A stretch of 53,797 nucleotides of DNA from Candidatus Omnitrophica bacterium CG11_big_fil_rev_8_21_14_0_20_41_12 (GCA_002796135.1 PCWB01000032.1:1-53797), one strand, 5' to 3'. Counted from the first letter of the stretch, positions 1 through 38,181 are shown. Translations and numbers: made by a program. The notes: a model not told the origin generated them from the sequence alone.

Positions 1-572
1 AAATCCTGACGCACATTGCCATCACAATTTACATCAACGCCCTTAACATCTTTATTTATCCCTACCTTTAAATTTATCTGATAATTAAATAAATCCTCTG
101 CACTAGGATTCTTGATCAAAATTTCTTTACGAAAATTAAAACCGCTTAACTGCGGATTGCCAAAACTAGAAGTTATGCCTGCAGTGTCTGTGTAAGTTAT
201 ATTGATCGCCTTAAGCCTTGAATCTTCATCCAAAACTCTAACGCGCCATTTAATCCGGTCTCCTTTAACAAAATTATCTGCTAAAGGGACGCCGTTAGTT
301 ACCGGATAATAATGCAGGCCGTTATCCGCGCTCACATCTAGCGCCACTTTTCCAACTGCAGTATAATTTACACAAATAGTTTTTATCTGACCCTTGGTTG
401 CGGCAAATCCGGACAAGACATACTCTGATTTTACTAATTTTGGCAGGGCATAATCTCCTGCTCCCCCCTCATACCAGGATAAAGGTGATCTAATTATGGT
501 TACTTCGGCATGTGCAACAGCTAAACCGGAAAACAGCAATACCAGTACAAACAAATTAAATATTTTATACAT
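1..572 (-). CDS. Secreted protein, 3' end cut by the window edge (possible DUF2341-like beta-sandwich region)
   Basis: ATG at 572-570. I checked the frame by hand and it is open down to nt 3. The N-terminus MYKIFNLFVLVLLFSGLAVAHA is a Sec-type signal peptide. The later segment FNFRKEILIKNPSAEDLFNYQINLKVG resembles DUF2341. It is absent from the ORF track because its stop lies outside the window. Confidence 0.5.
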   Translation of the reverse strand, partial: MYKIFNLFVLVLLFSGLAVAHAEVTIIRSPLSWYEGGAGDYALPKLVKSEYVLSGFAATKGQIKTICVNYTAVGKVALDVSADNGLHYYPVTNGVPLADNFVKGDRIKWRVRVLDEDSRLKAINITYTDTAGITSSFGNPQLSGFNFRKEILIKNPSAEDLFNYQINLKVGINKDVKGVDVNCDGNVRQD

Positions 573-751
573 TTTTATCTGCCTTCGCATATACTCTTTA
601 CCTTCATAAATCCTACTTTAACTATATAATATTCAATCAGTAATAACAATCGTAAAACTACTCGATTTCATTGCGCTTCTTACTTAAAGTGAACGACACA
701 ATTTTGCAGTTTGGACATTTTAGATTGGACATTTCTAATCTCAAAAGCGCT

Positions 752-1393
752 TTAAACATCAATGATTTTATTTTCCAAAGCGTATTTTATCAGGTCACTG
801 GTCTTATGTAAGTTAAGCTTCTTTAAGATGCTGTTTTTATGGTTTTCTACTGTCCTGCGGCTGATAAACAACACATCCGCAACCTCCTTGGCGGTTTTGC
901 CCTCCACAGTCAAGCGTAAAACATCGCTTTCCCGCTCATTTAAAAGTGCGATTGCTTCATTTTTTTTCTTCGGCTCTTTGGCTGTACCCGCCAAATATTC
1001 TGAGATTGCCTCTCCCAGATAAACTTTACCCGCAGCTACCCGGGCCAAAGCTAAGATTAACTCTTCAGCTACATTTTCTTTATTTAAATAACCATTCACC
1101 CCTTGGTGCAAAGCTTTTGAAACATAAGCTCCTAACTTATGCACTGAGATGATAATAATTTTTGTCTTAGCAGAAACCCGTTTTATGCGGGCAATTATAT
1201 CCAAACCGCTGATTTTAGGCATGGTAATGTCCAGCAGCAAAATGTCCGGCTTAATTTTTTCTACAACCTCCAAAGCCTCTTCTCCGTTTGAAGCTTCTGC
1301 GCAAACCTCATATTCTGCATGCCCTTTAAGCACGCTTTTAATACCGGCGCGGATAATGTCATGATCATCTGCGATTACAATTCTGGTTGCCAT
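752..1393 (-). CDS. Two-component response regulator, NarL/LuxR family (REC + LuxR-type HTH)
   Basis: REC motifs are present (VIADDHDIIR, LLLDITMPKISG, and a KA.. lysine). The C-terminus LNERESDVLRLTVEGKTAKEVADVLFISRRTVENHKNSILKKL is a GerE/LuxR HTH. The start lies 2 nt after the kinase stop. Confidence 0.9.
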   Translation of the reverse strand: MATRIVIADDHDIIRAGIKSVLKGHAEYEVCAEASNGEEALEVVEKIKPDILLLDITMPKISGLDIIARIKRVSAKTKIIIISVHKLGAYVSKALHQGVNGYLNKENVAEELILALARVAAGKVYLGEAISEYLAGTAKEPKKKNEAIALLNERESDVLRLTVEGKTAKEVADVLFISRRTVENHKNSILKKLNLHKTSDLIKYALENKIIDV

Positions 1394-1395
1394 AT

Positions 1396-2727
1396 TTAAA
1401 TTGGTAATGTTACACAGATACTGGTGCCATGGTCTGCGCCTGAATTTATATGCATCCGGCCATCAAGCAACTCTACCCGGTCCTTTAAACCTAAAAGCCC
1501 CATCCTTAATTTATCTTCTCTGCGGCGAAAAGGGGATTTAAGCACCGCGTTATAATCAAACCCCTTGCCGTCATCCGTATAAAATAATTCGGCGATCTCT
1601 GATTTTTGTACTAACTTTAATTCTACATGTTTGGCCTGCGAATGCTTGGCCATGTTCGTTAAAAGCTCCTGCGTAATCCGGTAAAAAAGTAAATTGTATT
1701 CTTCGGAGAGCTCAAAAAATGCTTCAGGCTTCTGATAGTTATAATCAATGCCGGTAAGATGTTTATATTCCAATAGTAAGGCCTCCAGGCTTTCAATTAG
1801 GCCCAGCTCATCGAGATCCGGTGGCCGCAGAAGAAAAGCAATGTTATGACTTTTTTCCATTAAACCAGAAATAATCTCTCTACACTGATTGATCTTCTCC
1901 CGTATTTCAGCTGAAGCATTTTCCAATCCTTGTTGAATTACGCCTAAATAAATTTTTAAAGCGCTTAAATCCTGGCCCATCTCATCATGTATGGCATTGG
2001 ACAGATGTTTGCGTTCGTCCTCTTCGACATTGATCAAGCGATTAAACATATCCTGCCGTAATAACCTCTCCTTAATCCTGCGGCGGTAAACTGCCAGAGC
2101 AATTAAACTTCCGGAGATTAATGCCGCGGCTAAACTAAACTGCAGAAAAAAAACTGCACGTGTTTTATCGGTTCTGGCTTGTGCCATCTGCCGTTGTACT
2201 TCTTCTAAATTAGCTTTACCCATAGAACCGTCTATAAATTCATCGATTTTGTAAACCTTATTTTCAAAGCTCATCAACAGGTTATTTACTGCCGGGCTGA
2301 CTTTTCCGGATCCTTCCTGATCGACGGAGCGGATGATCTTCTTGCCTAGAGCAAATAACTCTTCAAAGGATAGTTGTGCCTGATCAGCCCATTCTTTTTG
2401 CTGACTTAAATAAGCATTGCTACGGTAGATCTGTAATTGTTGCTTAAAACTTTCTCCGAATAAGAAGATCTTATCTGCATCTGCAGCCATGGGCGCAGCC
2501 CCCAAATACCGGGCTGAGTGCCAATAAACATAATTGCGCACACCTAAAGCATAATTAGCGTTTTTTATGCGCATCTCCAGTACTGCTGATTCCAGGGTTA
2601 AATTGTTTTTACCCAGATCTTCAATCTTACGCATCAGCCCCTGAATCTGGGATATCCCCACCACCCCGATAACTAATGTAAGTGAAATTAAAAAACCAAA
2701 AGCTAAGAGCAATTTCTTCTCTTTCAT
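1396..2727 (-). CDS. Sensor histidine kinase, HisKA_3/NarX-LiaS type, with an N-terminal two-TM extracytoplasmic sensor
   Basis: H-box SNAIHDEMGQDLSAL and a HATPase_c tail (DDGKGF, GLLGLKDRVELLDGRM). There are two TM segments around a roughly 170-aa sensor. I prefer the ATG at 2727 (AAGGA upstream) over the TTG at 2739 used in the ORF track. Confidence 0.85.
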   Translation of the reverse strand: MKEKKLLLAFGFLISLTLVIGVVGISQIQGLMRKIEDLGKNNLTLESAVLEMRIKNANYALGVRNYVYWHSARYLGAAPMAADADKIFLFGESFKQQLQIYRSNAYLSQQKEWADQAQLSFEELFALGKKIIRSVDQEGSGKVSPAVNNLLMSFENKVYKIDEFIDGSMGKANLEEVQRQMAQARTDKTRAVFFLQFSLAAALISGSLIALAVYRRRIKERLLRQDMFNRLINVEEDERKHLSNAIHDEMGQDLSALKIYLGVIQQGLENASAEIREKINQCREIISGLMEKSHNIAFLLRPPDLDELGLIESLEALLLEYKHLTGIDYNYQKPEAFFELSEEYNLLFYRITQELLTNMAKHSQAKHVELKLVQKSEIAELFYTDDGKGFDYNAVLKSPFRRREDKLRMGLLGLKDRVELLDGRMHINSGADHGTSICVTLPI

Positions 2728-2728
2728 C

Positions 2729-4798
2729 TTAATTTTCAAGTTCCTTAACCCGCTTCAATGCCTGCACCGTCCAAGGATCATCAGGTTCGCCAAAGGCCAC
2801 ACGTTTTCTCCAATACTCCAGGGCCTTGGAAAAATCCCCCCGGTCTTCATGAAATAATGCCAGATTCGAATAAGCTGCGCAAAAATTCGGGTCAGCTGCG
2901 ATTGCCTTAAGATACATCGCTTCAGCTTTGTCTGATTTAGAGTCCCGCTCATAGATTATCCCTAAGTTGTTATAGGCTGCGGCATATCTATTATCCAGCT
3001 CCGTAACCTTGATAAAATTGCGGATTGCTTCGTTAGAATTAGAGTCTGCCTGAGCGCGCAGCCCTTTTTGATAATAATCTTTGGCGTTTTCTTTTAACAC
3101 CGGCTTCTCTTTTTCAAGCGCAACTGCTTTTTTTACTGGCTCCTCTGCTGCTGCTTTTTCTACCGCCTGTTTTGCTGCTTTATCTTCCGCGCTTACTGCT
3201 GATTTATTCACCGAAACAATCTTTGAATTAAGCATTGTTTTATCTATCGCCTCATCTCTAACTACTTTCTCCTGTAATCTTTCCGGTAAATACTCCATAG
3301 GAATAATATCGGTAATTTCCTCACCACGCAACCCCACATCCTCCTTTGATAAATGCGGAGTAATAAAAATAATTACCTCTGTCCTCTTTTTTTCATTCGA
3401 ACGGTAACTAAAAAATGTTCCTAAAAATGGGATCCTGGATAACACCGGCCAGCCTTTAATTGATTCTATATTTTCGACTTTAGTCATCCCGGCAATCATA
3501 ATCATCGTACCGTCTTTAACTTTAACTGTAGTTTCAGACTGAGAGGTCTGCACTATCGGGATAACGCTACCCAAAGCAGTTGTGATGGTGTCTTTAACTG
3601 AGCTGACCTCCGGCTTAATCTTCATCGTAATAAAACCATCTGCCCCGATCTTAGGAACGATCTTTAATTTTACACCAACATCAATAAATTCAACCGCTTC
3701 GGAGGTTACCGTTGAAGAAGTTGCCTGGCTTTGAGTTTGGGTAACATAAGCTTCGCGCGAACCAACCATCACACTTGCCTCTTCATTATTAACTACCGCA
3801 ATTCTCGGCTGAGAGATAACATGGGTTTTACCGTAAGTATCCAGAAAATTTAAGATTGCTTTATAATGGTCGGTGGCCAAGGTCCCGACTGAGATTTTTT
3901 GATAGGCTGCAGTAAGGGTGGCGGGAAAATATCCGGAAAAAGCCAAACCATCCATCGCCGCTTCAGTAAATACCTTTTCCCAATCTATGCCTCTTTCAAA
4001 TTTGTCGTCTAAGGTCAGCTCTACGATATCAGTTTCCACATAAACCTGACGCGATTCCTCATCCAACTCCCGGACTAACATATTCATTCTCTGCATCTTC
4101 TGCGGTAAATCCGAAATGATTGCCTTCCCGCTACGCTCATCAATAATTACTTCACCGGTTCCCGGGGTGACTGCTGCGCTAAATTGCGCTTTGGCATCAG
4201 CAGCCTTCATATAATTTAAATCGTAAATTGAAGTCGTTAGGGGCCGATCCAATTCTTTAATTGTTTCATTTAACAACTCCAGCTTCCCCGGGGTATCAAT
4301 CAGGATTATTGTGCCGCTGGCTTCATCAACCACAATTTTCCCCACATCGGATTTTAGCTGACCCAAAGCATTAAAAATTATCGAAGGCTTAGCATAAACT
4401 AGCTTTACAGTCTGGATTTTTCTCGGATCAACATAATCCTGGCCAAAATTTTTCCGGTATTCTGCGGCAGTCATCACATAATAAATATTGTCTTTTCTAT
4501 TTAAAGCTAATCCTTGGGTCAAAACAATAATATCCAGCACATCGTTAAAAGCCACATTAGTTAAATATACAGTAATCCGGCCGGTAATATCTTTACTGGG
4601 AACAATCGTTTTGCCGGTTTTTAAAGAAATAATCCGCAATAACTCTACGATATCGACGTTTTTTAAATCCAAAGAAATCTTATCATCAGCGCCTTCCTGA
4701 GCCTGAGAATCATCAACAGCACAATCGATTTTTATACCCAAAGGATTGATTAAAAATACCGAGATTAATAAAATTGTGATTAAATTATTTGGCTTCAT
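2729..4798 (-). CDS. Secretin (T2SS/T4P GspD/PilQ/MshL-like) with a roughly 200-aa C-terminal extension ending in TPR repeats
   Basis: It has a signal peptide and Secretin_N-like repeats. The secretin core is GADGFITMKIKPEVSSV...VIPIVQTSQSETTVKVKDG...GWPVLSRIPFLG...EVIIFITPHL. The C-terminal segment AKDYYQKGL...AAYNNLGIIY...AAYSNLALFHEDRGDFSKALEYW is TPR. A GAGG SD lies 5 nt before the ATG at 4798. Confidence 0.8.
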   Translation of the reverse strand: MKPNNLITILLISVFLINPLGIKIDCAVDDSQAQEGADDKISLDLKNVDIVELLRIISLKTGKTIVPSKDITGRITVYLTNVAFNDVLDIIVLTQGLALNRKDNIYYVMTAAEYRKNFGQDYVDPRKIQTVKLVYAKPSIIFNALGQLKSDVGKIVVDEASGTIILIDTPGKLELLNETIKELDRPLTTSIYDLNYMKAADAKAQFSAAVTPGTGEVIIDERSGKAIISDLPQKMQRMNMLVRELDEESRQVYVETDIVELTLDDKFERGIDWEKVFTEAAMDGLAFSGYFPATLTAAYQKISVGTLATDHYKAILNFLDTYGKTHVISQPRIAVVNNEEASVMVGSREAYVTQTQSQATSSTVTSEAVEFIDVGVKLKIVPKIGADGFITMKIKPEVSSVKDTITTALGSVIPIVQTSQSETTVKVKDGTMIMIAGMTKVENIESIKGWPVLSRIPFLGTFFSYRSNEKKRTEVIIFITPHLSKEDVGLRGEEITDIIPMEYLPERLQEKVVRDEAIDKTMLNSKIVSVNKSAVSAEDKAAKQAVEKAAAEEPVKKAVALEKEKPVLKENAKDYYQKGLRAQADSNSNEAIRNFIKVTELDNRYAAAYNNLGIIYERDSKSDKAEAMYLKAIAADPNFCAAYSNLALFHEDRGDFSKALEYWRKRVAFGEPDDPWTVQALKRVKELEN

Positions 4799-6305
4799 TC
4801 TTTACCTCGCGGCCGATATTGCCGGCTCCGGTTATAATTGTCGGGGTTATAAATATAACTAACTCGGTCTTTTTATTTTCTTTAGTTTTCGTAGCAAATA
4901 AATTTCCTAAAATCGGTATACGCGATAATTTCGGCCATCCACTACTATCATCCGTATCTTCCTGTTTTAATAAACCGGTAATAATCAAAGTGCGGCCATC
5001 CTTTATTTTAACTACTGACTCAGACTGAGAAGTCTGCACTATCGGAATCACCGAACCCGTAGAAGTAGTTAGAGTGTCTTTTACCGAACTGACCTCCGGT
5101 TTAATCTTCATCGTGATAAAACCGTCAGCTCCAATTGTCGGTACCACCGTCAACTTCAAGCCTACATCAATAAACTCAACACTCTCTGCAGTAAGCGTAG
5201 ATGACTCGCTTTGGCTCAAAGTAGTGGTGACATAGGCCTCACGGGTACCAACTAAAATTTTAGCTTCTTCTTTGTTAACCGCAACAATCCTCGGCCGGTT
5301 AATCGTCTTGGTGTTTCCATATTCATTTAACATATTAATAACGACATTATAGTCATTGGCGGCCAGTGTTCCCATGCTGATTTTCCCGTAACTGGAGAGC
5401 GCCGGGGTCACCGGGAATTTCCCTACGATATCTAAATTATCTACGGATCTAAAAATCCTGTCCCAATCAATCCCGCTTTGAAATTTATCATCAATATAAA
5501 CCTCGATAATCTCACCGGTTATTAATACCTGCCGGCTCTGCTCGTCAAACTCCTCCATCAATCTCTTAATCCTCACCAAGCGTTGCGGCAGATCATAAAC
5601 AATTACTTTTGAACCACGCTCATCTAAGATAATCTGACCGACTCCCGGAGTAATTAAATCATTTAAGAAACTTTTAATATCCGCAGCTTTAGCATAATTA
5701 ATATCAAAAACCTCCGTACCTAAAGGCTGGTCTAATTCTTTAATCGCCTGAGCCATCACTGAAATTGACTGCGGAGCATCAATAATAATAATTGTTCCGG
5801 TGGATTCATCGGAGATTATCTTGCCGACATCAGATTTTAATAAGTTGATCACATTTAAAACATTAGCCGGCTTAGAATAGGCTAATTTAAAAGTCCGCGT
5901 CTCTTTATGTTCGGAATATTTTTTTCCGTAAGCTCTCTCATATTCAGGGGCAGTCATTACCTTAATTACATTACCCTTACGCTCATAAGCCAAATTTTGC
6001 ATCGTGGCAACTACATCTAGGGCATCCTCAAAACTTAAATTATTCATAAATACGGTCACCCTTCCCTGAACTTCCGGAGAGGTAACAATCGTAACCCCGC
6101 TTTTACTTGAAAGCACTTTAAAAAGTTCATTAATATCTATCCCTTTGAGATCCAATGAAATCTTATCATTAACTTCAGGATTACCGGATTTAGAAGCGAC
6201 AACCTCCTGCTCAAGCTCTTCCGGCTGCAAATCATCTGCAATAATCGATTTTGCCATCAATAACATAATCAACGCTCCGAGAAAAAAATAACCGGTTAGT
6301 TTCAT
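4785..6305 (-). CDS. Secretin (GspD/PilQ/MshL-like), paralogue of 2729..4798 without the TPR tail
   Basis: Same architecture as its neighbour. It shares the run IGADGFITMKIKPEVSSVKDT and GSVIPIVQTSQSE with it, and carries GWPKLSRIPILG...ELVIFITPTI. ATGA start/stop overlap with the upstream gene. Confidence 0.85.
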   Translation of the reverse strand: MKLTGYFFLGALIMLLMAKSIIADDLQPEELEQEVVASKSGNPEVNDKISLDLKGIDINELFKVLSSKSGVTIVTSPEVQGRVTVFMNNLSFEDALDVVATMQNLAYERKGNVIKVMTAPEYERAYGKKYSEHKETRTFKLAYSKPANVLNVINLLKSDVGKIISDESTGTIIIIDAPQSISVMAQAIKELDQPLGTEVFDINYAKAADIKSFLNDLITPGVGQIILDERGSKVIVYDLPQRLVRIKRLMEEFDEQSRQVLITGEIIEVYIDDKFQSGIDWDRIFRSVDNLDIVGKFPVTPALSSYGKISMGTLAANDYNVVINMLNEYGNTKTINRPRIVAVNKEEAKILVGTREAYVTTTLSQSESSTLTAESVEFIDVGLKLTVVPTIGADGFITMKIKPEVSSVKDTLTTSTGSVIPIVQTSQSESVVKIKDGRTLIITGLLKQEDTDDSSGWPKLSRIPILGNLFATKTKENKKTELVIFITPTIITGAGNIGREVKNEAK

Positions 6306-6952
6306 CTTAATTCGTATTCCCGGGTGCTCGCTCCTAAGTTAACTTCTAAAGTTGCGGAATTACGCGAAATCTCCTTAATTTTAAACTGGCTGCTAAAAGA
6401 CTCACCTTTCTTTAAAGTATAAGTCCGCGAATCTTTGGCATTTTCAATCATTACCTCCGGATTCTTTGACCAGATAACCCCGACTAATTTAAAATCTTTA
6501 AGCTCATTCAGAACATCGACGTCTTCTTCGGCTATAACACCAGAACCCTTAAAACTAGGCGGCATGAAAAAATCCCTTCTTAAGCTTTCTCCGCTGATAT
6601 TTTTACGCATTGCTCCCTGCTCCCGGCCGGCTGAAATAAATTTTAATACTGCTTTAGAATCAGCCGGAGTAAAATAAGCGGCATTAGATTTAGAGATGGC
6701 CGGGGCACTAAATAAAGTGTAGATAAAAATCAAGGTCAAAAATGCTCCCAAGCCGATCAAGCCCTTATTTACTTTAACCAGATCGAACTTTAAGTTCTTA
6801 AAAATACCCTTTAGAGCAACTAAATCAAACCTTGACCCTGTGGGCAGCCCAAATGATTTCTTGGTGCCGGGTAGATTTATCTTGGCTCGACGCGGTTCAC
6901 TTGAGCCTTCGATGATCTTAAGTAATCTTTCATCCGATGTTTGCTTATCCAT
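6302..6952 (-). CDS. Bitopic membrane protein, PilP/GspC-like secretin-interacting domain (tentative)
   Basis: One TM segment (LIGLGAFLTLIFIYTLF). The C-terminal FKLVGVIWSKNPEVMIENAKDSRTYTLKKGESFSSQFKIKEISRNSATLE has the pattern typical of PilP/GspC HR beta-domains. Its position between the ATPase and the secretin supports the call. Confidence 0.45.
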   Translation of the reverse strand: MDKQTSDERLLKIIEGSSEPRRAKINLPGTKKSFGLPTGSRFDLVALKGIFKNLKFDLVKVNKGLIGLGAFLTLIFIYTLFSAPAISKSNAAYFTPADSKAVLKFISAGREQGAMRKNISGESLRRDFFMPPSFKGSGVIAEEDVDVLNELKDFKLVGVIWSKNPEVMIENAKDSRTYTLKKGESFSSQFKIKEISRNSATLEVNLGASTREYELR

Positions 6953-6954
6953 AA

Positions 6955-7779
6955 TTAAACTACGCTACGGGCAATTAAATCCCGGATCATCGCCCCGTCC
7001 ACCACTGTTTTATTGCTGGTCACCAGATTCCTTAAAGCATTATGACAAATTAAATTGATCCTGCGGGGATACCCCTGACTGTAACGCTGAATTTCACTAA
7101 CTGCTTCACCGGTAAAAAGTTGCAACTCTGTATTAAAACCGGCATGATGCAGACGAAAATTAATCAGATCTTTAGTTTCCGGCTCATCCAGAGGATTAAT
7201 CACATATTTGAGCACAATCCGGTCGTAAAAATTCTTAATCTCTTTGATCTTAGGCAAAAGCTCCATCTGCGAAAAAAGCACCAGTTGCAGCAGCTTATAA
7301 TCATTGGTTTCGTAATTTAGCAAAACTCGCAAGACCTCTAAAGATTCCTCATTTAATTTTTGCGCCTCATCGACAACTAAAACAATAGTTTTATTTTCAT
7401 CTACTCCTTTTTCAAAAAGATGTTTTTTAATTACCTCTTTATAATCCAGAATGCTGGGTGAGCCGGCAAGCTGATCCTGAAGATTAAACGTACGCACTAA
7501 TGATTCCAGGAATAACTCCTCGCTTTGAGCAGTGGGGTCTAAAATCATATAAAATAATATACCCTCCCGCTCCTTAAGCATTTGAAAAAGCTTGCGCGAA
7601 AGAGTAGTTTTGCCTACCCCGACATCCCCCAAAATGACGCTTAAGCCCCGGCGCAGGCGGATCTCAACCAATAAACGAATCAACGCTGCCTTATGTTCGT
7701 TAGATTCAAAGAAAAACTCCGGGTCCGGGCTGTTGGAAAATGGCTCTTTGATTAAGCCTAGCGTTGAAAAATAGCTCAT
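6955..7779 (-). CDS. AAA+ ATPase, ExeA(GspA)/MshM-like (AAA_22)
   Basis: N-terminus YFSTLGLIKEPFSNSPDPEFFFESNEHKAAL, Walker A GDVGVGKTT and Walker B LVVDEAQ. At 274 aa it has no peptidoglycan-binding C-terminal domain, so it is closer to MshM than to ExeA. Confidence 0.75.
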   Translation of the reverse strand: MSYFSTLGLIKEPFSNSPDPEFFFESNEHKAALIRLLVEIRLRRGLSVILGDVGVGKTTLSRKLFQMLKEREGILFYMILDPTAQSEELFLESLVRTFNLQDQLAGSPSILDYKEVIKKHLFEKGVDENKTIVLVVDEAQKLNEESLEVLRVLLNYETNDYKLLQLVLFSQMELLPKIKEIKNFYDRIVLKYVINPLDEPETKDLINFRLHHAGFNTELQLFTGEAVSEIQRYSQGYPRRINLICHNALRNLVTSNKTVVDGAMIRDLIARSVV

Positions 7780-8007
7780 TTAGCCCTTTCTTAGTAGATT
7801 ACAGATTAATTTTAAAGAATAACCCTGGCTTTTAAGGTTATCGATCTTTTTTAAACAAACCCCTACCTGTCGCGAGTCATAAAGCCGGCTGTTGGCATTC
7901 CTCTTCTTAACCATCAATAAGCCCAAATTAGTATAGTAGTTAACCGTCTGATAAGAAATACCATAAATTTTACCAATTTCAGTCGGTGAAATTAATGCTT
8001 TGGCCAT
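7780..8007 (-). CDS. Small HTH DNA-binding protein (MerR/excisionase-like HTH)
   Basis: ISPTEIGKIYGISYQTVNYYTNLGLL is an HTH. I prefer the ATG at 8007 because GGAGG lies 7 nt upstream; the ORF track starts at 8049. The stop abuts the ATPase start. Confidence 0.55.
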   Translation of the reverse strand: MAKALISPTEIGKIYGISYQTVNYYTNLGLLMVKKRNANSRLYDSRQVGVCLKKIDNLKSQGYSLKLICNLLRKG

Positions 8008-8090
8008 GCTTGCCTCCATTGTAAGATTAATTTTTATTTTATTTTTCAAGCTTATAGCTATCTATAGTAAGTGCTATAATGCTATATGAA

Positions 8091-8119
8091 ATGATATAAT
8101 AAACTATACATTTTGTCAA
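8091..8119 (-). promoter_or_regulatory. Putative sigma70 promoter of the HTH-ATPase-secretin operon
   Basis: On the minus strand: TTGACA (8119-8114), 17-nt spacer, TATCAT (8096-8091). The -35 context ACTTGACAA recurs at the putative promoter at 25270-25298. Confidence 0.35.
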
Positions 8120-8250
8120 GTACTATTCCGCTTTTTTTGGGGATTTTACCGACGAGAAAACATAACTTGGCAGATTTTTACAACACTTCTAAAAAGGAAA
8201 AACTGAATTGACATAACTTATGTATTTGCAACGGTTTTTGCGCCAGATAA

Positions 8251-8766
8251 TTAAATCTTTTTAAGCAGGCCTTTAAGGAACAGGGCTTCGGCCTTCAATA
8301 AACAGAGGTTATGCTCTAAGATCTGAGAGTGAGGAATAGAGTTTCTTAAATCTTTAGATCTTAGCAGCGTTTGGATGCTCGAAGATATCTTATTGAGAAT
8401 ACTTAGGCGGGCGGCTAATCTTCGGTGGGCTAAATTGGCAGGAAGATAGCTTAAAAAGTAGAGGCTTAAATCCAAAGTAAATTGAGGACGTTTAAAATCA
8501 AGCAGGTTTTTGCTTAGGAGCATCTCAAAACGCTCTTTACCTTTTGGCGTCAGACAATAAACAAAACATTCCGGCCGTCGGCCATGTTTAGCTGCCTGCT
8601 TGGATAGAAAGCCCTTTTTCTCCAAAACTTTTAAGGGATAATAAATTGATTTTAATTCGACACCGGCAAAAAGCGAAAGTATTTCGCGTACTTTTACCTT
8701 GATTTCATAACCGTGTTTCGGAGCCTGACGTAAGAGGCCTAATAGCAGAAGCTCCTGCTCAATCAT
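8251..8766 (-). CDS. PadR-family transcriptional regulator
   Basis: LLLLGLLRQAPKHGYEIKVKV...IYYPLKVLEKKGFL is a winged-helix PadR signature. 4-nt overlap with accA. Confidence 0.8.
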   Translation of the reverse strand: MIEQELLLLGLLRQAPKHGYEIKVKVREILSLFAGVELKSIYYPLKVLEKKGFLSKQAAKHGRRPECFVYCLTPKGKERFEMLLSKNLLDFKRPQFTLDLSLYFLSYLPANLAHRRLAARLSILNKISSSIQTLLRSKDLRNSIPHSQILEHNLCLLKAEALFLKGLLKKI

Positions 8767-9710
8767 GCGGTAACACCTATGGACCTGAATTTCTTATATC
8801 TTAATTTAAGCAACTCATCTTTTTCTAAAAGCTCTAATTCCTTAAGATTCCTTAAAAGTGCTTCTTTAATATTGAAAGCAGTTTTTTGCGCGTCACGATG
8901 CGCGCCGCCTAAAGGCTCAGGGATTACTTCATCAATAATGCCCATTTTTAAGAGGTCGGCACCGGTGAGTTTTAAAACCTGCGCTGCCTGAGGCGCCTTG
9001 GCTCCGTCTTTCCAAAGGATTGCTGCACATCCTTCCGGGGAAATAACTGAATAGTATGAATTCTCTAAAACTGCAACACGATCCGCCACCCCTACCCCAA
9101 GGGCTCCTCCTGATCCACCTTCTCCGATTACAATTGCTATAATCGGCGTCGCAATAGAAGTCATCTCCCGCAAATTAAGCGCAATCGCATGAGATTGGCC
9201 GCGCTCTTCAGCGCCGATACCAGGATATGCGCCCGGAGTATCAATAAAAACTACCACCGGTAAATTAAACTCCTCAGCCATTTGCATCAGGCGCAAAGCT
9301 TTGCGGTATCCTTCCGGATGCGCGCAGCCAAAATTTCTTTTTAAGTTTTCTTTGGTATCGCGGCCCTTTTGGTGCCCGATCACCATAATTTTCTTTTTAT
9401 CAAGCCTCGCCAAACCGCAGATCATCGCTTTATCATCGCTAAAAAGCCGGTCACCATGCAGCTGGACAAAATCCGACATAATCATGCCGATATAATCTAA
9501 AGTATACGGCCGCTGCGGGTGGCGGGCGATCTGCACTTTCTGCCAGGCACTAAGATTAACATAGGTATCTTTTTTTAAACACTCCAGTTTTTCTTCAAGC
9601 TTTTTTGTCTCTGAGAACAGATCGATCTTTTTTTCAGACATAAAAGATCGAAGCTCCTGGATTTTTTTCTCTAATTCTACTATAGGTTTTTCAAATTCTA
9701 GTCCGGCCAT
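8763..9710 (-). CDS. accA: Acetyl-CoA carboxylase carboxyltransferase alpha subunit
   Basis: Full-length match to AccA hallmarks: AWQKVQIARHPQRPYTLDYI, FIDTPGAYPGIGAEERGQ, GEGGSGGALG. Confidence 0.95.
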   Translation of the reverse strand: MAGLEFEKPIVELEKKIQELRSFMSEKKIDLFSETKKLEEKLECLKKDTYVNLSAWQKVQIARHPQRPYTLDYIGMIMSDFVQLHGDRLFSDDKAMICGLARLDKKKIMVIGHQKGRDTKENLKRNFGCAHPEGYRKALRLMQMAEEFNLPVVVFIDTPGAYPGIGAEERGQSHAIALNLREMTSIATPIIAIVIGEGGSGGALGVGVADRVAVLENSYYSVISPEGCAAILWKDGAKAPQAAQVLKLTGADLLKMGIIDEVIPEPLGGAHRDAQKTAFNIKEALLRNLKELELLEKDELLKLRYKKFRSIGVTA

Positions 9711-11721: not shown

Positions 11722-13251
11722 ATGATCTCAAAAACTTATAGTTTCGGACTTCTGGGCCTGGAGGCTTATCTGGTTGAAATAGAAATCGACGTTGCCGCAG
11801 GCCTTCCGCAAGTAACTTTGGTCGGTTTAGCAGATACGGCAATCAAGGAAAGTAAAGAAAGGGTACGCTCGGCAATCAAAAACTCAGGATTTCAATGGCC
11901 GGCGCAAAGAATAACTATAAATTTGGCTCCTTCTAATATTAAAAAGGAAGGCGCTTGTTTTGACCTGGCCATTGCCTTGGGAATTTTAGCGGCAACCGAA
12001 CAGATCAACGGTGAACTTCTTAGGAATTACGCGTTTCTGGGAGAGCTATCTCTTGATGGACGGTTGCGGCCGGTGCATGGAGTTTTGCCTATAAGTTTAG
12101 CCATGGCAAATCTGCCGCTAAAGAATCTGATCCTGCCCGAAGAAAATGCCAAAGAGGCTGGAATCGTTCCGGAGATATCTGCCTGGCCGCAAAAGAGCTT
12201 AAAAGAAACTATGCATTTTTTAACTGACCCCGGCTCAAGACAACCATTCAAATTAGTTATTGAAGAAAATCTTATACCAAATGCAAATTACAACCTAGAC
12301 TTCTGTGAAGTCAAAGGACAATATTTTGCTAAAAGGGCGCTTGAGGTGGCAGTTGCCGGCGGACATAACATTATCTTGCTTGGGCCACCGGGCTCAGGCA
12401 AAACTATGCTTGCTAAAAGAATCCCCACGATTATGCCTAGCCTTTCTTTGCAGGAAGCACTGGAAATAACTAAAATCCACTCGGTTGCAGGGACATTGTT
12501 AAACCAAGACGGCTTTATGGGAACCCGGCCATTCCGTTCTCCGCATCACGGAATCTCCGACGTTGCCTTGATCGGCGGAGGAAGCATACCTAAACCGGGA
12601 GAAATAAGTTTATCTCATTACGGAGTTTTATTCCTGGATGAGTTACCGGAATTCAGCCGCAAAGCGCTGGAAACATTAAGGCAGCCGCTGGAGGATAATT
12701 TAATTTGCATCAGCCGCATAAAAAGAAGTTTGATTTTTCCGGCTTGCTTTATTTTAGCTGCTGCGCTTAACCCCTGCCCCTGCGGAAATTATTTTAACCC
12801 GCAAAAACCTTGCCACTGTAACCCCGCAAAAATCAGGAATTACCTGGGTAAAATCTCCGGCCCATTGCTTGACCGTATCGATATACATATCGAGGTGCCA
12901 CAGGTAAAATACCGTGAACTAACCGAAACAAATAACGCCGAGTCATCGCAAGCGATCAGACAGCGCGTTGAGAATGCACGCCGGATCCAGCGGGAAAGAT
13001 TTAAATCAACCAAGATCTTCTGTAATGCTCAAATGCAGGGTCGGTTAATTAAAGAGGTTTGCCTGCTCAATAAAGAGGCCCAAGAATTAATCCGTATGGC
13101 GATATCAGAACTGGGTTTATCGGCAAGAGGTTATGATAAAATTCTTAAAGTGAGCCGAACAATTGCAGATTTAGAACAAAAGGAAATTATCTGCCAGGAG
13201 CATGTGGCTGAAGCCATACAATACCGCAGCCTGGACAAGCTTTTAAATTAA
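11722..13251 (+). CDS. comM: Mg-chelatase-like AAA+ protein YifB/ComM
   Basis: N-terminal Lon-protease-like domain, Walker A GPPGSGKTM, Walker B LFLDELPEF, and a C-terminal Mg_chelatase_C region (SARGYDKILKVSRTIADL). Confidence 0.9.
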   Translation: MISKTYSFGLLGLEAYLVEIEIDVAAGLPQVTLVGLADTAIKESKERVRSAIKNSGFQWPAQRITINLAPSNIKKEGACFDLAIALGILAATEQINGELLRNYAFLGELSLDGRLRPVHGVLPISLAMANLPLKNLILPEENAKEAGIVPEISAWPQKSLKETMHFLTDPGSRQPFKLVIEENLIPNANYNLDFCEVKGQYFAKRALEVAVAGGHNIILLGPPGSGKTMLAKRIPTIMPSLSLQEALEITKIHSVAGTLLNQDGFMGTRPFRSPHHGISDVALIGGGSIPKPGEISLSHYGVLFLDELPEFSRKALETLRQPLEDNLICISRIKRSLIFPACFILAAALNPCPCGNYFNPQKPCHCNPAKIRNYLGKISGPLLDRIDIHIEVPQVKYRELTETNNAESSQAIRQRVENARRIQRERFKSTKIFCNAQMQGRLIKEVCLLNKEAQELIRMAISELGLSARGYDKILKVSRTIADLEQKEIICQEHVAEAIQYRSLDKLLN

Positions 13252-13294: not shown

Positions 13295-13771
13295 ATGGTA
13301 AAAACAAGAATCTTTATCGAAAACGCTTGCTATCATATTTATGCAAGAGGAAATCAAAAACAGTTAGTTTTTATTGAAAGGAGTGATTTTGAATTCTATC
13401 TGAAGCAACTGAAACACTACAAAATAAAGTATTCTTTTCATTTGTATGGTTATTGCTTGATGCCCAACCATATCCATCTTATGGGAAAGCCTATCGTTCC
13501 TAAGAAACTATCTAATTTTATGCAATGTCTGCAACGTTCTTATACCGCTTATTATAATAAAAAATATAGCAAAGTCGGCCATCTTTGGCAGGGTAAATTT
13601 AAAGCAAAATTAATTGCTAAAGACCAGTATGCCTTGGATTGTATCTCCTATATTGAAACAAACCCAGTAAGGGCAAAATTGGTAAATAATCCTAAAGATT
13701 ATATTTTTTGTAGTTACTCGGAAAGGAATTTTGACAATAATTACCAGCTTCTGAATAAGTTTCTACTCTAA
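13295..13771 (+). CDS. REP-associated tyrosine transposase (RAYT; IS200/IS605-like Y1 HUH transposase)
   Basis: HUH motif in LMPNHIHLMG and catalytic Tyr context ISYIETNPVRAKLV. It is 158 aa and flanked by inverted REP units. Confidence 0.8.
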   Translation: MVKTRIFIENACYHIYARGNQKQLVFIERSDFEFYLKQLKHYKIKYSFHLYGYCLMPNHIHLMGKPIVPKKLSNFMQCLQRSYTAYYNKKYSKVGHLWQGKFKAKLIAKDQYALDCISYIETNPVRAKLVNNPKDYIFCSYSERNFDNNYQLLNKFLL

Positions 13772-14827: not shown

Positions 14828-16366
14828 TTAATGCCGCATCAGAGCCAGCGCTTCCGAACGGGTCTTTTCATTTTCTTTAAAAATTCCGCGCACCGCACTC
14901 GTTACGGTCATCGCCCCGGGTTTTCTTACTCCGCGCATAGACATGCAATTTCCAGAAATAACAACTCTCCCATTTCGCCTAACCAAAACTAACCCCTTTG
15001 GCACGCTCACACAAAAAACTTCTCCATTATATTTTTTAAACGAAAAATTACACGGCCTTAATTTTGAATACCATTTATCTTCCCCTAGCTTTGTTTTATG
15101 CGTCTCCATCTTAAAGAATTTTTTATTATTTTGCTTTGTACAACCAATACCTAATTTAATACAAACTTCTTGCAAATCATTTATTAGCCTCTCCGATTTG
15201 GAAACAAAATGTATCGCTTTGTTCTTTTTAATATGCCCATCACCCTTTATATACCAATCAAGAAACAACCTTAATAATTTAGGAGGAGCATTTTTTATAA
15301 CCCTAGGGATATATTTATCTGCTGATTTACCAAATTTCTTAAAGTATTCATAAAAATCTTTATCTTCTATTCTGAACTGGATGGTCTTTCCACTTTTACA
15401 TTGTATATATTTAATTCCTAAACCATCGAATAGATCCTTGATTTCCGAAAAACTTTTTGATTTAGGGCTTTGAGAAACAACAACAAATTTACGTTTTCCA
15501 GTCTGCGTAACACAGCCCTCACTAACCCAAATTCCAAAAAATTGCGCAAATATATCTGCAGATAAAGTATACCTACCAATCTTTATATTCTTAACACTCT
15601 TACCGGACCAATTACATGCCCGAGGAATTACTAAATATTTTTTCATCAATTCTTTTATTGGACTGATATGCCAATTATTATTCTCGTTATAAAAATCCCA
15701 TTCTGAAGAATAATAGCATCTGTGCTCAGGAGTAACCAGTAAATCGACGGAAAGGCTTTTAGCTCTTACCATATTCCCATTATATTTATAAGAAACGAAG
15801 TCTTTAGGCTTAACAAAAGACAGGCGCCTTGTTAAAGGATCCACTTGAGCTACTTTATCGATACTCTTCAAATCCTTGAACAACTTCCAGCTATTCTCCG
15901 TTAATATCTCTGTTCTTTCATCATAACAAAGATGTTCCGCCTCAATCACCACCATTACTCCCAACGGCTTTAATTTGCTCATCACAATTTCAGCAATCTG
16001 CGTCGTTAATCTCTCCTGCACTTGGGGCCGACGGGATAAAATATCCACCACCCGGACAAACTTGCTTAATCCGGTTACCCGGCCGTTTTTAGGAATATAG
16101 GCAATATTTGCTCTGCCTAAAAAAGGTAGTAGATGATGCTCGCATACCGAATATAACGGTATACCCCGCAGAAGGATAATCTCATTATGCTTTTGGTCCA
16201 GAATGACTTCCAGTTCTTTCTCCGGATCCAGCTTAATGCCTGAGAATATCTCTTCGTACATCTGGGCCACCCGGCGCGGCGTCTCTAGGAGATCTTTCCT
16301 TTTCGGATCTTCGCCGATTGCTTCAAGAATCTGGCGGACTGCCTTCTCAATCTTAATTTTATTCAT
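14828..16366 (-). CDS. folE: GTP cyclohydrolase I (FolE) interrupted by an intein
   Basis: The exteins match FolE: [31 protein letters not shown] | [11 protein letters not shown]...ALALM. I prefer the ATG at 16366 (GAGGG upstream) over the TTG at 16375. About 327 extra residues are inserted. Confidence 0.9.
14948..15928 (-). mobile_element. Intein with a LAGLIDADG homing-endonuclease domain inside folE
   Basis: The intein starts at Cys ([11 protein letters not shown], block A). Block B is LLVTPEH. Two LAGLIDADG-like motifs are present ([11 protein letters not shown] and [13 protein letters not shown]). Blocks F and G are EVFCVSVP...RVVISGN, followed by the +1 Cys (CMSMRGV). The region is visibly more AT-rich than the exteins. 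Confidence 0.85.
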
Positions 16367-16407
16367 ATTTATCAAACCCTCTAGTAAACCTCAAAATTAT
16401 AGAACTT

Positions 16408-34731: not shown

Positions 34732-35178
34732 ATGGCTTGGCGGTCTAAAAAAGGTTTTACTTTACCGGAAATGCTCTTGGCCGCAGTAATTGCCTCATTT
34801 GCGCTATGTGGCATATTATTAACCTATATTACCTGCCTGGACACAGTTAAGCTATCCAAAAACGTAAGCATTGCCACGAGTGCCGCGCAAGGATTAATCG
34901 AAGATATTCGCAGCACCCCCTTCCCGCAAATCATTACCAACTACGACCAATTAATATTCACTGTAAATAATATCCCGTCCAGCAGGGGCATAGTTTATGT
35001 TGATGATACTAATCCGGAACTGCTATTGGTAACCGTAAGTGTGTGCTGGAAGCAAGGGAACAGAATCATCGGTGAAGATACCAACCTTAACGGAGCGCTT
35101 GATGCCGGAGAAGATACAAATGGTAATGGCATAATCGATTCAACTGTGGAGCTGGTCACACAGGTGGCCAACCGATAA
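34732..35178 (+). CDS. Prepilin-type N-terminal cleavage/methylation domain protein (minor pseudopilin)
   Basis: KKG|FTLPEMLLAAVIASF with Glu at +5. Confidence 0.8.
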   Translation: MAWRSKKGFTLPEMLLAAVIASFALCGILLTYITCLDTVKLSKNVSIATSAAQGLIEDIRSTPFPQIITNYDQLIFTVNNIPSSRGIVYVDDTNPELLLVTVSVCWKQGNRIIGEDTNLNGALDAGEDTNGNGIIDSTVELVTQVANR

Positions 35179-35180
35179 AA

Positions 35181-35696: not shown

Positions 35697-35697
35697 T

Positions 35698-37002: not shown

Positions 37003-37005
37003 TCT

Positions 37006-38163: not shown

Positions 38164-38181
38164 AGCATCCCTCCTTCATCT

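What the first reader, a model, noticed from the sequence alone, without database searches (positions are those of the whole stretch)
752..8119. Self-contained outer-membrane-conduit operon: HTH, MshM/ExeA-like ATPase, PilP/GspC-like protein, two secretins and a kinase/regulator pair, without pilus or T2SS inner-membrane machinery
Seen: seven minus-strand genes are packed with junctions of -14 to +2 nt (7780|7779, 6955|6952, ATGA overlap at 6302-6305, 14-nt overlap at 4785-4798, about 1 nt at 2727-2729, 1396|1393). They lie behind one promoter-like site at 8091-8119. Established: ExeA/MshM AAA+ proteins and PilP/GspC adaptors act with secretins in T2SS, T4P and MSHA systems. Inference: this window has no GspE/PilB ATPase, no GspF/PilC platform, no prepilin peptidase and no major pilin, and the only pseudopilins lie 27 kb away on the other strand. 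Hard-wiring a secretin module to its own HTH protein and HisKA_3/LuxR two-component pair is not a canonical arrangement. It may represent a regulated secretion or uptake gate of unknown function.
Basis: partly seen in the sequence, partly recalled or inferred. Interest (0 to 1): 0.7.

Follow-up and report, generated by a model that had tools for sequence, protein, structure and literature searches.

The report
Split-off secretin half of Omnitrophota T2SS-like machine
The seven genes are real and conserved, but they look like the outer-membrane and regulatory half of a type II secretion / type IV pilus-like machine found across the uncultured phylum Omnitrophota, with the inner-membrane half probably encoded elsewhere in the genome rather than missing.

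Summary
Seven tightly packed minus-strand genes lie behind one strong, conserved promoter: a MerR-type HTH, an AAA_22 ATPase, a PilP/GspC-fold membrane protein, two paralogous secretins (the second with a C-terminal TPR domain), a HisKA_3 kinase and a LuxR-type regulator. The window comes from a Candidatus Omnitrophota genome.

The same seven-gene order recurs in about 25 species. An eighth gene, for a secreted DUF2341 protein, always follows; the window edge cuts it.

The "self-contained conduit" reading is not supported. In at least 13 other Omnitrophota species the core (AAA_22, PilP-like protein, secretin, TPR protein; in most of them also the kinase and regulator, in four the DUF2341 gene) sits directly behind GspE-GspF-PilM/N-PilO-GspG-minor pseudopilins in one operon. 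In other lineages the two halves lie about 27-30 kb apart on one contig. In one complete chromosome (CP070797.1) they are about 845 kb apart, and the GspE-to-GspG operon there has no secretin.

I could not retrieve the inner-membrane half for the window's own clade, so that step is inferred.

The unusual features that remain are tandem ancient secretin paralogs, a secretin-TPR fusion, a GspA/GspB-like pair outside Proteobacteria, and an embedded two-component system. This is a new variant of a known kind, of moderate interest.

The parts
8091..8119 (-). Sigma-70-type promoter, TTGACA-17-TATCAT
   Evidence: It scores 11 of 12 and is the best site in 1-8800. The TTGACA and most of the -10 hexamer are invariant in 9 species.
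8062..8100 (-). Two 19-nt direct repeats spaced 20 nt apart; one overlies the -10 box. Candidate operator.
   Evidence: The repeats were found. The block TTATATCATTTnATATAGCATnATAGCAnTTACTATA is conserved in 9 species. Its function is inferred only.
7780..8007 (-). Small MerR-type HTH protein of 75 aa, with a DNA-binding domain only
   Evidence: Pfam MerR_1 scores 36.8 bits against a cutoff of 21.6. The ATG and RBS are conserved. It sits directly upstream of the ATPase gene in most split and some contiguous lineages.
6955..7779 (-). Soluble AAA_22 P-loop ATPase, like GspA/ExeA/MshM
   Evidence: AAA_22 gives E = 3e-17. TIGR03015 matches over its full length at 170 bits, below the 324.5 cutoff. 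Walker A (GDVGVGKT) and Walker B (VVDEAQ) are invariant in 12 species. Identity is 79-95% within the clade, and 256 GTDB species carry relatives.
6302..6952 (-). Bitopic inner-membrane adaptor with a PilP/GspC/GspB-type HR domain
   Evidence: It has no Pfam hit. In the AF2 model the C-terminal domain (residues 154-215) has pLDDT of 82-93 by 10-residue blocks, and a transmembrane helix spans residues 58-82. The Foldseek top four are 3jc8 PilP, 3oss GspC-HR (TM 0.74), 2y4y PilP and 7oio LspC. The invariant N-terminal motif is SDERLLK-IE. An ortholog in L267 has a weak T2SSC hit.
4785..6305 (-). Secretin 1 (506 aa): signal peptide, N0/STN, two Secretin_N, secretin domain
   Evidence: The best NCBIfam model is PilQ at 234 bits (cutoff 284). 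It forms its own ortholog clade across 15 species.
2729..4798 (-). Secretin 2 (689 aa): same architecture, plus a linker and a C-terminal TPR domain (residues ~572-685, nt 2744-3085)
   Evidence: It is 53% identical to secretin 1 over 447 aa. It forms a separate ortholog clade. In other lineages the TPR part is a separate gene right after the secretin.
1396..2727 (-). Sensor histidine kinase: two TM helices, a periplasmic 4HB_MCP-like sensor, HisKA_3 and HATPase_c
   Evidence: The ATG at 2727 was read. It is conserved behind the secretin/TPR genes in both split and contiguous operons.
752..1393 (-). NarL/FixJ-type response regulator (REC + GerE/LuxR HTH)
1..590 (-). 5' part of the gene for a secreted DUF2341 protein, cut by the window edge. 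Candidate cargo or filament-tip adhesin.
   Evidence: The translation shows a signal peptide. A DUF2341 gene follows the regulator in L017, L023, L026, L028, L029, L030, L032 and L033, and also in contiguous operons L081, L085, L089 and L096. A promoter-like site lies at 744-717.

Best explanation
The cluster is the outer-membrane, assembly and regulatory half of a type II secretion-like (type IV filament) machine that is conserved across the phylum Omnitrophota. In the window's clade this half has been separated from the operon for the inner-membrane platform and pseudopilins.

Proposed working:
1. The two secretins are exported by Sec and form the outer-membrane channel or channels.
2. The 216-aa bitopic protein is anchored in the inner membrane. 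Its PilP/GspC/GspB-type HR domain binds the secretins' N0 domains, which tethers and helps assemble the channel.
3. Its invariant cytoplasmic N-terminal helix is the likely docking site for the soluble GspA/MshM-like P-loop ATPase.
4. The TPR domain on secretin 2 replaces the separate membrane-anchored coiled-coil/TPR protein that follows the secretin in other lineages.
5. A GspE ATPase, GspF, a PilM/N-PilO platform and a GspG-type pseudopilus, encoded elsewhere, would drive export through the channel.
6. The kinase/regulator pair and the small MerR-type protein control expression.
7. The DUF2341 protein encoded next door is the most likely cargo or filament-associated adhesin.

Shown: gene content, folds, conservation, and physical linkage to GspE-K genes in relatives. 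Inferred: all protein contacts, the cargo, the regulatory targets, and the presence of the GspE-K operon in this particular genome.
For: - The organism is an Omnitrophota bacterium. All 120 listed homologs of the 216-aa protein that carry a name are from Omnitrophota metagenome-assembled genomes.
- The seven-gene order is conserved in about 20 species representatives, and also in L032 and L033.
- The ATPase family occurs in 256 species. The AAA22-adaptor-secretin core is present in essentially all loci long enough to show it, and a MerR-like gene precedes the ATPase in most split and some contiguous loci.
- In L081, L083-086, L089 and L094-096 the order is GspE-GspF-PilM/N-PilO-GspG-minor pseudopilins-GspK-like-AAA22-adaptor-secretin-TPR, followed in most by HK-RR and in four by DUF2341. 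L082, L088 and L098 are partial copies. L106 and L267 show a second contiguous order. In L085 the GspG ortholog scores 135 bits against a cutoff of 88.85.
- A second contiguous order, E-F-G-...-PilO-(MerR)-AAA22-adaptor-secretin, occurs in L114-116, L119 and L122.
- Split arrangements exist. In chromosome CP070797.1 the E-F-M/N-O-pseudopilins-G operon near 0.88 Mb has no secretin, and the MerR-AAA22-adaptor-Sec-Sec-TPR-HK-RR cluster lies near 0.036 Mb. The halves lie about 27-30 kb apart on single contigs of JAAYZR01, WOZK01, JBDRPX01 and CAZAVF01. Roughly 20 further E-to-G operons end without a secretin.
- The adaptor has the PilP/GspC-HR fold.
- GspB-type HR proteins bind secretin N0 and work with a cognate GspA ATPase, and some GspAs lack the periplasmic part (PMC9239104, PMC4098917).
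- DUF2341 is described as a component of type IV pilus-like systems and as a domain of PilY adhesins (PMC4858521, PMC11809585).
- Seymour et al. report a 'T4aP' cluster next to an unusual F-type ATPase in most Omnitrophota (PMC10066038). That is the arrangement seen at L112.
Against: - The GspE-F-L/M-G operon was not found for the window's own clade. A protein search seeded with the closest available GspE found no hit traceable to the clade, by shared contig length or by the record of the three hits looked up.
- The window's own prepilin-like genes (34732-37416) are not detectably related to the GspG-K set of the contiguous operons.
- No secretin model reaches its NCBIfam cutoff, so the T2SS versus T4aP versus MSHA label is not settled.
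- BLAST similarity of the ATPase to E. coli GspA is confined to the P-loop (E = 0.002).
- No protein-protein contact was tested.
Confidence: 0.72

Rival explanations
1. The machine this module serves is a true surface pilus of the T4a or MSHA type, used for attachment to host or prey cells, rather than a protein-secreting pseudopilus. The DUF2341 protein would then be a PilY1-like tip adhesin, and the secretins would be the pilus exit pores.
For: - Both window secretins score best against the PilQ model (234 and 204 bits).
- The partner operon has PilM/N and PilO-type platform proteins and a GspE with an MshEN domain.
- A soluble AAA_22 ATPase plus a TPR protein beside the secretin is the MshM/MshN pattern of MSHA loci (my own knowledge).
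- Seymour et al. classify the cluster as T4aP and link it to host attachment (PMC10066038).
- DUF2341 has been described as a PilY-type adhesin domain (PMC4858521).
Against: - The major subunit passes the GspG equivalog cutoff (135 against 88.85 bits).
- GspI-, GspJ- (T2SSJ), GspK- and GspM-like hits accompany it.
- No PilT-type retraction ATPase lies in any of the operons examined.
- The PilQ and MshL models are both below cutoff.
- No AMIN domain was detected.
Confidence: 0.22
2. One reading: in this clade the seven genes act on their own as a regulated outer-membrane gate for secretion or uptake, without any pseudopilus or inner-membrane motor.
For: - No E/F/L/M genes lie within +/-10 kb of the cluster in about 25 species of the clade.
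- The cluster has its own conserved promoter, its own ATPase and its own two-component system.
- The partner operon was not retrieved for this clade.
Against: - The same orthologous genes are the 3' end of a complete GspE-to-GspK operon in many sister lineages.
- They coexist with a secretin-less E-to-G operon in a complete genome that also has a two-secretin + HK + RR module.
- The adaptor's HR domain and the secretins' N0 domains are the parts that couple secretins to inner-membrane platforms in known systems (PMC9239104).
- T4aP/T2SS-type clusters are reported in most genomes of every Omnitrophota class (PMC10066038).
Confidence: 0.06
3. The ATPase marks a PEP-CTERM/exosortase-type polysaccharide or protein-sorting export locus (TIGR03015 family), and the secretins are recruited for that pathway.
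For: TIGR03015 is the best NCBIfam hit for the ATPase and covers its full length (E = 6e-50).
Against: - The score of 170 bits is far below the 324.5 cutoff.
- No exosortase, chain-length determinant, Wza-type exporter or glycosyltransferase genes lie next to any copy.
- The constant neighbours are secretins, an HR-domain adaptor and Gsp genes.
Confidence: 0.02

Closest known systems
GspA/GspB (ExeA/ExeB)-GspD secretin assembly module of gammaproteobacterial T2SS (PMC4098917, PMC9239104)
   Same: - A P-loop AAA+ ATPase gene lies next to the gene for a single-pass inner-membrane protein whose periplasmic HR domain contacts the secretin N0 domain.
- Both lie beside the secretin gene.
- Some GspAs (Alteromonas, Pseudoalteromonas) also lack the periplasmic region.
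   Different: - The ATPase here has no transmembrane segment and no peptidoglycan-binding domain.
- Similarity to E. coli GspA is limited to the P-loop.
- A small MerR-type gene precedes the ATPase in most split and some contiguous lineages.
- The HR protein is the only GspC/PilP-like protein in the complete operons, so it may act as both GspB and GspC.
- GspB homologs were reported only in beta- and gammaproteobacteria (PMC9239104), whereas this is the PVC-group phylum Omnitrophota.
MSHA pilus secretory operon mshI-J-K-L-M-N-E-G-F of Vibrio (my own knowledge, not tested against Vibrio sequences)
   Same: - A soluble AAA_22 ATPase (MshM-like) and a TPR protein (MshN-like) are encoded beside the secretin.
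- The partner ATPase carries an MshEN domain.
- The platform proteins are of PilM/N and PilO type.
   Different: - The gene order differs.
- The MshL equivalog scores 170-177 bits against a cutoff of 250.
- The major subunit is of GspG type.
- There are two secretins.
- A two-component system and a DUF2341 gene are embedded.
Omnitrophota 'T4aP' clusters next to a type 2/3 F-type ATPase (Seymour et al. 2023, PMC10066038) and 'T2SS-like loci' near giant genes (West-Roberts et al. 2023, bioRxiv 10.1101/2023.11.21.568195)
   Same: - The inner-membrane half found here in relatives (L112) lies directly behind F-type ATPase alpha/gamma/beta genes, as those authors describe.
- Giant genes flank some copies.
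   Different: Neither paper (nor the 2026 Omnitrophota preprint) uses the word secretin, and a two-term search for Omnitrophota + secretin found nothing relevant, so the secretin/ATPase/adaptor/two-component module and its split from the E-F operon appear undescribed. West-Roberts's locus contains rcpC and a PPIase, so it may be a different, Tad-like system.
T4aP PilMNOPQ with TPR pilotins PilF/PilW/Tgl
   Same: - A PilP-fold adaptor accompanies a PilQ-like secretin.
- The TPR region has weak hits to Tgl and PilW.
   Different: - The stand-alone TPR proteins in relatives have an N-terminal membrane anchor and a coiled coil, not a lipobox, so they are not PilF-type lipoprotein pilotins.
- The adaptor is not a lipoprotein.
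- No AMIN domains were detected.

Membership tests
Type II secretion system (Gsp) | Outer-membrane secretin GspD | tested here: inconclusive
   The Pfam Secretin and Secretin_N hits are strong (E = 1e-44), and there are weak N0 hits. The TIGR02517 GspD equivalog scores 216 and 203 bits against a cutoff of 351.
Type II secretion system (Gsp) | Inner-membrane adaptor with an HR domain (GspC) that links platform and secretin | tested here: met
   Foldseek hits on the AF2 model: GspC-HR 3oss_C at TM 0.74 and rmsd 2.6 A, then PilP and LspC. The hhalign match to the E. coli GspC HR region is weak, E = 0.064. An ortholog has a weak T2SSC Pfam hit.
Type II secretion system (Gsp) | GspE, GspF, GspL/M and GspG-K in the same genome | not testable with these tools
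   These genes are absent from the 53.8-kb window. They are present and contiguous with orthologs of this module in more than 13 other species. In L085 GspG passes the equivalog cutoff at 135 against 88.85 bits. They are present about 845 kb away in chromosome CP070797.1. The source genome beyond the window could not be read.
GspA/GspB (ExeAB) secretin assembly pair | AAA+ ATPase gene adjacent to the gene for a bitopic HR-domain protein, beside the secretin gene | tested here: met
   The pair is conserved in all loci examined.
GspA/GspB (ExeAB) secretin assembly pair | GspA periplasmic peptidoglycan-binding region | tested here: not met
   The 274-aa ATPase is entirely AAA_22 domain, with no transmembrane segment and no PG_binding hit. 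Short GspAs without this region exist in Alteromonas (PMC9239104).
GspA/GspB (ExeAB) secretin assembly pair | Sequence relatedness to characterised GspA | tested here: inconclusive
   BLASTP against E. coli K-12 GspA gives E = 0.002 over 48 residues around the P-loop only. No PDB sequence relative was found.
MSHA-type pilus system | MshL secretin equivalog | tested here: not met
   TIGR02519 scores 170 and 177 bits against a cutoff of 250.
MSHA-type pilus system | MshM-like soluble ATPase and MshN-like TPR protein beside the secretin; MshE ATPase with an MshEN domain | tested here: inconclusive
   An AAA_22 ATPase and a TPR domain are present. GspE orthologs in relatives carry MshEN. No direct comparison with Vibrio MshM or MshN sequences was made.
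Type IVa pilus (PilQ module) | PilQ subfamily secretin with AMIN domains; PilP lipoprotein | tested here: not met
   TIGR02515 scores 234 and 204 bits against a cutoff of 284. There is no AMIN hit. The adaptor has a transmembrane helix rather than a lipobox.
XrtA/PEP-CTERM system ATPase (TIGR03015) | Score above the model cutoff, and an exosortase/EPS gene neighbourhood | tested here: not met
   The score is 170 bits against a cutoff of 324.5. No exosortase or EPS genes lie next to any copy.
NarL/FixJ-type two-component system | HisKA_3 + HATPase_c kinase, and a REC + GerE/LuxR regulator | tested here: met
   Pfam hits are above cutoffs. The nearest NCBIfam models are MctS/MctR, UhpB and NarL, all below equivalog cutoffs.
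MerR family transcription factors | N-terminal winged HTH plus a C-terminal dimerisation helix and effector domain | tested here: not met
   The MerR_1 HTH is present (36.8 bits against 21.6). The protein is only 75 aa, so it has no room for the coiled-coil and effector domain. It resembles the small HTH-only MerR-like proteins such as BldC (my own knowledge, not tested).

The most novel reading that the evidence does not exclude
The two ancient secretin paralogs, retained side by side in every species of the clade, may assemble into a mixed or two-channel outer-membrane complex. Secretin 2 would carry the system's TPR scaffold as a built-in domain. This outer-membrane half would be switched on separately from the motor half by its own kinase/regulator pair, so that export of the DUF2341 or giant adhesins is gated on contact with a host cell. 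My literature search found no paper describing a heteromeric or tandem secretin.
Probability: 0.12. Interest if true: 0.65.

Novelty: new variant of a known kind. Interest (0 to 1): 0.36.

Why it matters
Omnitrophota are uncultured, mostly ultra-small bacteria suspected of living as parasites or predators. Their pilus and secretion clusters are central to that hypothesis.

This analysis links a previously undescribed secretin / ATPase / adaptor / two-component module to the GspE-GspG ('T4aP') clusters already noted in the phylum. It shows that the system is often split into two distant loci, so surveys that score only contiguous clusters may mis-score its completeness.

It also extends GspA/GspB-type secretin assembly pairs beyond Proteobacteria. 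It provides natural gene fusions and fissions (secretin with TPR protein) and repeated tandem secretin duplications, which are testable leads on how secretins are scaffolded.

It does not reveal a new kind of transport system.

Tried and rejected
- **Profile search of the 216-aa protein against PDB sequences.** Nothing useful came back. The fold search was needed instead.
- **Phmmer of the ATPase against PDB.** No hit.
- **Literature searches.** Omnitrophota + secretin gave nothing relevant. A search for heteromeric or tandem secretins also gave nothing relevant.
- **Window prepilin-like cluster (34732-37416) as the displaced GspG-K set.** Rejected. It has no BLAST similarity to the GspG-K proteins of the contiguous operons, and no T2SSG hit.
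- **An apparent extra secretin upstream of the GspE operon in L112 and upstream of the module in L050.** Rejected. The hits are only to TPR repeats.
- **The TPR domain as a PilF/PilW/Tgl-type lipoprotein pilotin.** Weakened. The stand-alone homologs have a membrane anchor and a coiled coil, with no lipobox.
- **Three attempts to find the GspE operon in the window's own clade.**
  - An N-terminal-only profile scan found 545 relatives, but the best 80 kept contained none of the clade's assemblies.
  - A protein search seeded with the GspE of the nearest available lineage was followed by three contig look-ups, which returned other lineages.
  - All four genome scans are now used.
- **GspE-centred loci from other phyla.** They showed no AAA22 or adaptor homologs nearby, so no closer non-Omnitrophota model system was found.

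Full report
**Observation**

The ORF scan reproduces the seven minus-strand genes at the stated coordinates, with the stated junctions. I also read the two doubtful junctions base by base.
- The secretin-2 stop ends at 2729. One base follows, and the kinase ATG is at 2727.
- The HTH gene most likely starts at the ATG at 8007, 6 nt after GGAGG. That start and RBS are conserved in nine species, which gives a 75-aa product rather than the 89-aa TTG ORF.

The domain calls are as follows.

| Coordinates | Product |
|---|---|
| 752-1393 | REC + GerE regulator |
| 1396-2727 | HisKA_3/HATPase_c kinase with a 4HB_MCP-like sensor |
| 2729-4798 | secretin with C-terminal TPR |
| 4785-6305 | secretin |
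| 6302-6952 | 216-aa protein with no family hit |
| 6955-7779 | AAA_22 ATPase |
| 7780-8007 | MerR_1 HTH |

TTGACA-17-TATCAT at 8119-8091 is the best promoter-like site in the first 8.8 kb. The number of such sites in the region is no more than chance gives. What makes this site credible is that both hexamers are conserved in relatives.

**Organism and conservation**

All named homologs of the 216-aa protein come from Candidatus Omnitrophota metagenome-assembled genomes. Identical copies of the locus occur on several metagenome contigs.

A scan of GTDB species representatives with a profile of that protein returned 23 loci. ORF-by-ORF BLAST showed the same order, HTH-ATPase-adaptor-secretin-secretin/TPR-kinase-regulator, wherever the contig was long enough.

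| Protein | Identity to the window |
|---|---|
| ATPase | 79-95% |
| adaptor | 42-77% |
| secretins | 63-81% |

Immediately downstream of the regulator, on the same strand, every species encodes a secreted protein with a DUF2341 domain. The window holds only its first 196 codons.

**What the unannotated protein is**

An AlphaFold2 model built on 54 orthologs has three parts.
- A short N-terminal helix carrying an invariant SDERLLK-IE motif.
- A transmembrane helix at residues 58-82.
- A confident C-terminal beta domain (pLDDT 82-93 by 10-residue blocks).

Foldseek against the PDB puts PilP (3jc8), the GspC HR domain bound to GspD (3oss_C, TM 0.74), PilP (2y4y) and LspC (7oio) at ranks 1-4. The E-values are modest (0.007-0.2) and the profile-sequence match to E. 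coli GspC is weak.

**The key result: the module is half of a larger machine**

A scan with the ATPase profile found 256 species. The best 80 were almost all labelled Omnitrophota or mislabelled PVC bins.

A motif search for GspE-type Walker boxes and prepilin N-termini in the flanks, followed by Pfam and NCBIfam on locus L085, gave this operon:

1. GspE (T2SSE + MshEN)
2. GspF
3. PilM/PilN fusion
4. PilO/GspM
5. GspG (TIGR01710, 135 bits against a cutoff of 88.85)
6. GspI-like protein
7. Another prepilin
8. GspK-like protein
9. AAA22
10. Adaptor
11. Secretin
12. TPR protein
13. Kinase
14. Regulator
15. (IS200-like insertion)
16. DUF2341 protein

The same contiguous order recurs in L081, L083-086, L089 and L094-096; most also carry the kinase and regulator, and four carry the DUF2341 gene. 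L082, L088 and L098 are partial copies, and L106 shows the second order below. It also appears in further loci found from the GspE side. A second contiguous order, E-F-G-pseudopilins-K-PilM/N-PilO-(MerR)-AAA22-adaptor-secretin, occurs in L114-116, L119, L122 and L267. There the precomputed Pfam hits add T2SSJ, and a weak T2SSC hit for the adaptor.

Other lineages are split.
- About 20 E-F-M/N-O-pseudopilin-K-G operons end without any ATPase, adaptor or secretin.
- In four assemblies the two halves lie about 27-30 kb apart on one contig (coordinates).
- In the complete chromosome CP070797.1 the module, with two secretins, separate TPR proteins, kinase and regulator, lies near 0.036 Mb. The secretin-less E-to-G operon lies near 0.88 Mb.
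- An apparent secretin hit upstream of that operon proved to be a TPR protein. It is followed by F-type ATPase alpha (with PAS), gamma and beta genes and a regulator.

That is the 'T4aP next to a symbiotic F-type ATPase' locus described for most Omnitrophota by Seymour et al. (PMC10066038).

**What remains inferred**

I could not show the E-to-G operon for the window's own clade.
- The window has none.
- Neighbours within +/-10 kb in about 25 species are housekeeping genes.
- The clade's assemblies did not fall within the returned subsets of two GspE scans.
- A protein search seeded from the nearest available lineage also missed them.

The inference rests on three things: orthology of every module gene with the contiguous operons, the CP070797.1 case, and the reported near-universality of these clusters in the phylum.

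**Mechanism**

By analogy with GspB/OutB and ExeB, the HR domain should bind the N0 domain of the secretins and tether the channel to the inner membrane. In those systems the HR domain binds secretin N0 and the protein works with a cognate GspA ATPase. Some GspAs lack a periplasmic part (PMC9239104; PMC4098917).

The soluble ATPase has invariant Walker A and B motifs. It should act on the adaptor's conserved cytoplasmic helix. Because the complete operons contain no other GspC/PilP-like gene, the adaptor may also serve as GspC.

The TPR element always follows the secretin. As a separate protein it has an N-terminal membrane anchor, a coiled coil and C-terminal TPRs, not a lipobox. It is therefore not a PilF-type pilotin. 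In the window's clade it is fused to secretin 2, which argues for direct contact between the two.

The kinase/regulator pair is part of the unit in both contiguous and split forms. DUF2341 has been described as a component of type IV pilus-like systems and as a PilY-type adhesin domain (PMC4858521, PMC11809585). The neighbouring DUF2341 protein is therefore the best candidate for cargo or filament-tip adhesin. Giant surface-protein genes flank some copies, in line with West-Roberts et al..

**The two secretins**

They are 53% identical over 447 residues. Across 15 species they fall into two clean ortholog clades with equal conservation (mean 69%), against 41-50% identity between paralogs. This is an old duplication with both copies kept and no sign of gene conversion.

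A rough NJ tree of secretins from more distant loci suggests that tandem duplication arose more than once in the phylum. This tree is weak evidence. I found no literature on heteromeric or tandem secretins. Whether the two proteins form mixed rings, separate channels or serve two machines is open.

**Classification**

No secretin model reaches its cutoff: PilQ 234/204, GspD 216/203 and MshL 170/177 bits. The partner genes lean towards T2SS, with GspG above cutoff and hits to GspI, GspJ, GspK and GspM. Features of MSHA or T4aP systems are also present: an MshEN domain on GspE, an MshM-like ATPase, a TPR protein, and PilM/N/O. No PilT-type gene is in the operons.

I file it as a T2SS-like member of the type IV filament superfamily. 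The pilus reading stays as a live rival. The TIGR03015 (PEP-CTERM ATPase) hit is below cutoff and has no supporting gene context.

**Verdict**

The 'self-contained conduit' idea is very probably wrong. This is the detached outer-membrane and regulatory half of a phylum-wide T2SS/T4P-like system.

It is a new variant of a known kind, with several uncommon features:
- a GspA/B-like pair outside Proteobacteria;
- a small MerR-type partner gene;
- tandem secretin paralogs;
- a secretin-TPR fusion;
- an embedded two-component system;
- a linked DUF2341 gene.

Interest is moderate.

Noticed in passing
window 14828-16375 (-): GTP cyclohydrolase I (folE) is 515 aa and carries a LAGLIDADG_3 insert. Orthologs in L032 and L033 are 185-197 aa, so this copy appears to carry an intein.
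   Followed up: partly
window 13295-13771 (+), next to 11722-13251 (+): An IS200-like Y1 transposase gene sits beside a ComM/Mg-chelatase-like gene. It holds the same position in several Omnitrophota species (L001-L003, L032), which suggests a fixed, possibly domesticated copy.
   Followed up: no
window 34732-37416 (+): A four-gene prepilin-like cluster: 148 aa (KGFTLPE), 171 aa (RGFTVFE), 434 aa with DUF4900, and 136 aa. It has no detectable similarity to the GspG-K set of the Omnitrophota T2SS-like operons, so it probably belongs to a different filament system.
   Followed up: partly
window 8062-8100 (-): Two 19-nt direct repeats lie 20 nt apart, and one overlaps the -10 box of the operon promoter. 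They sit inside a block conserved in nine species. They are a candidate operator for the 75-aa MerR-like protein or for the LuxR-type regulator.
   Followed up: partly
window 28733-30667 (-): A 644-aa protein has an N-terminal PilZ domain and a weak GH76-like region. It is a possible c-di-GMP-responsive protein. The partner GspE ATPases in relatives carry c-di-GMP-binding MshEN domains.
   Followed up: no
window 37711-44861 (-): A complete V/A-type ATPase operon is present: subunits c, I, D, B, A, a DUF2764 protein and E.
   Followed up: no
L112 4220-8982 (CP070797.1, about 0.88 Mb): F-type ATPase alpha (fused to a PAS_3 domain), gamma and beta genes and a double-receiver regulator lie directly upstream of the secretin-less GspE-GspG operon. 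This matches the 'symbiotic' F-ATPase/T4aP loci of Seymour et al..
   Followed up: partly
L059-L061, L065, L073, L077 (secretin genes after the adaptor gene): A rough NJ tree suggests that tandem duplication of the secretin gene happened independently in several Omnitrophota lineages.
   Followed up: partly
L032 18815-20654 and L268 18023-21722: Giant surface-protein genes directly flank one or the other half of the system. One is 5207 aa with Big_1; the other is over 2553 aa with fn3, He_PIG and Big_9.
   Followed up: no
L028 1-2610: A ribonucleotide reductase gene carries a LAGLIDADG intein in a related Omnitrophota genome.
   Followed up: no
L053 (LCKE01000049.1), L103, L105, L227, L228: Several contigs carrying this Omnitrophota-type module or its GspE operon are deposited under other phylum names (Parcubacteria, Gastranaerophilales, WOR-3, Babeliales, Deltaproteobacteria). 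This probably reflects binning or labelling errors.
   Followed up: no
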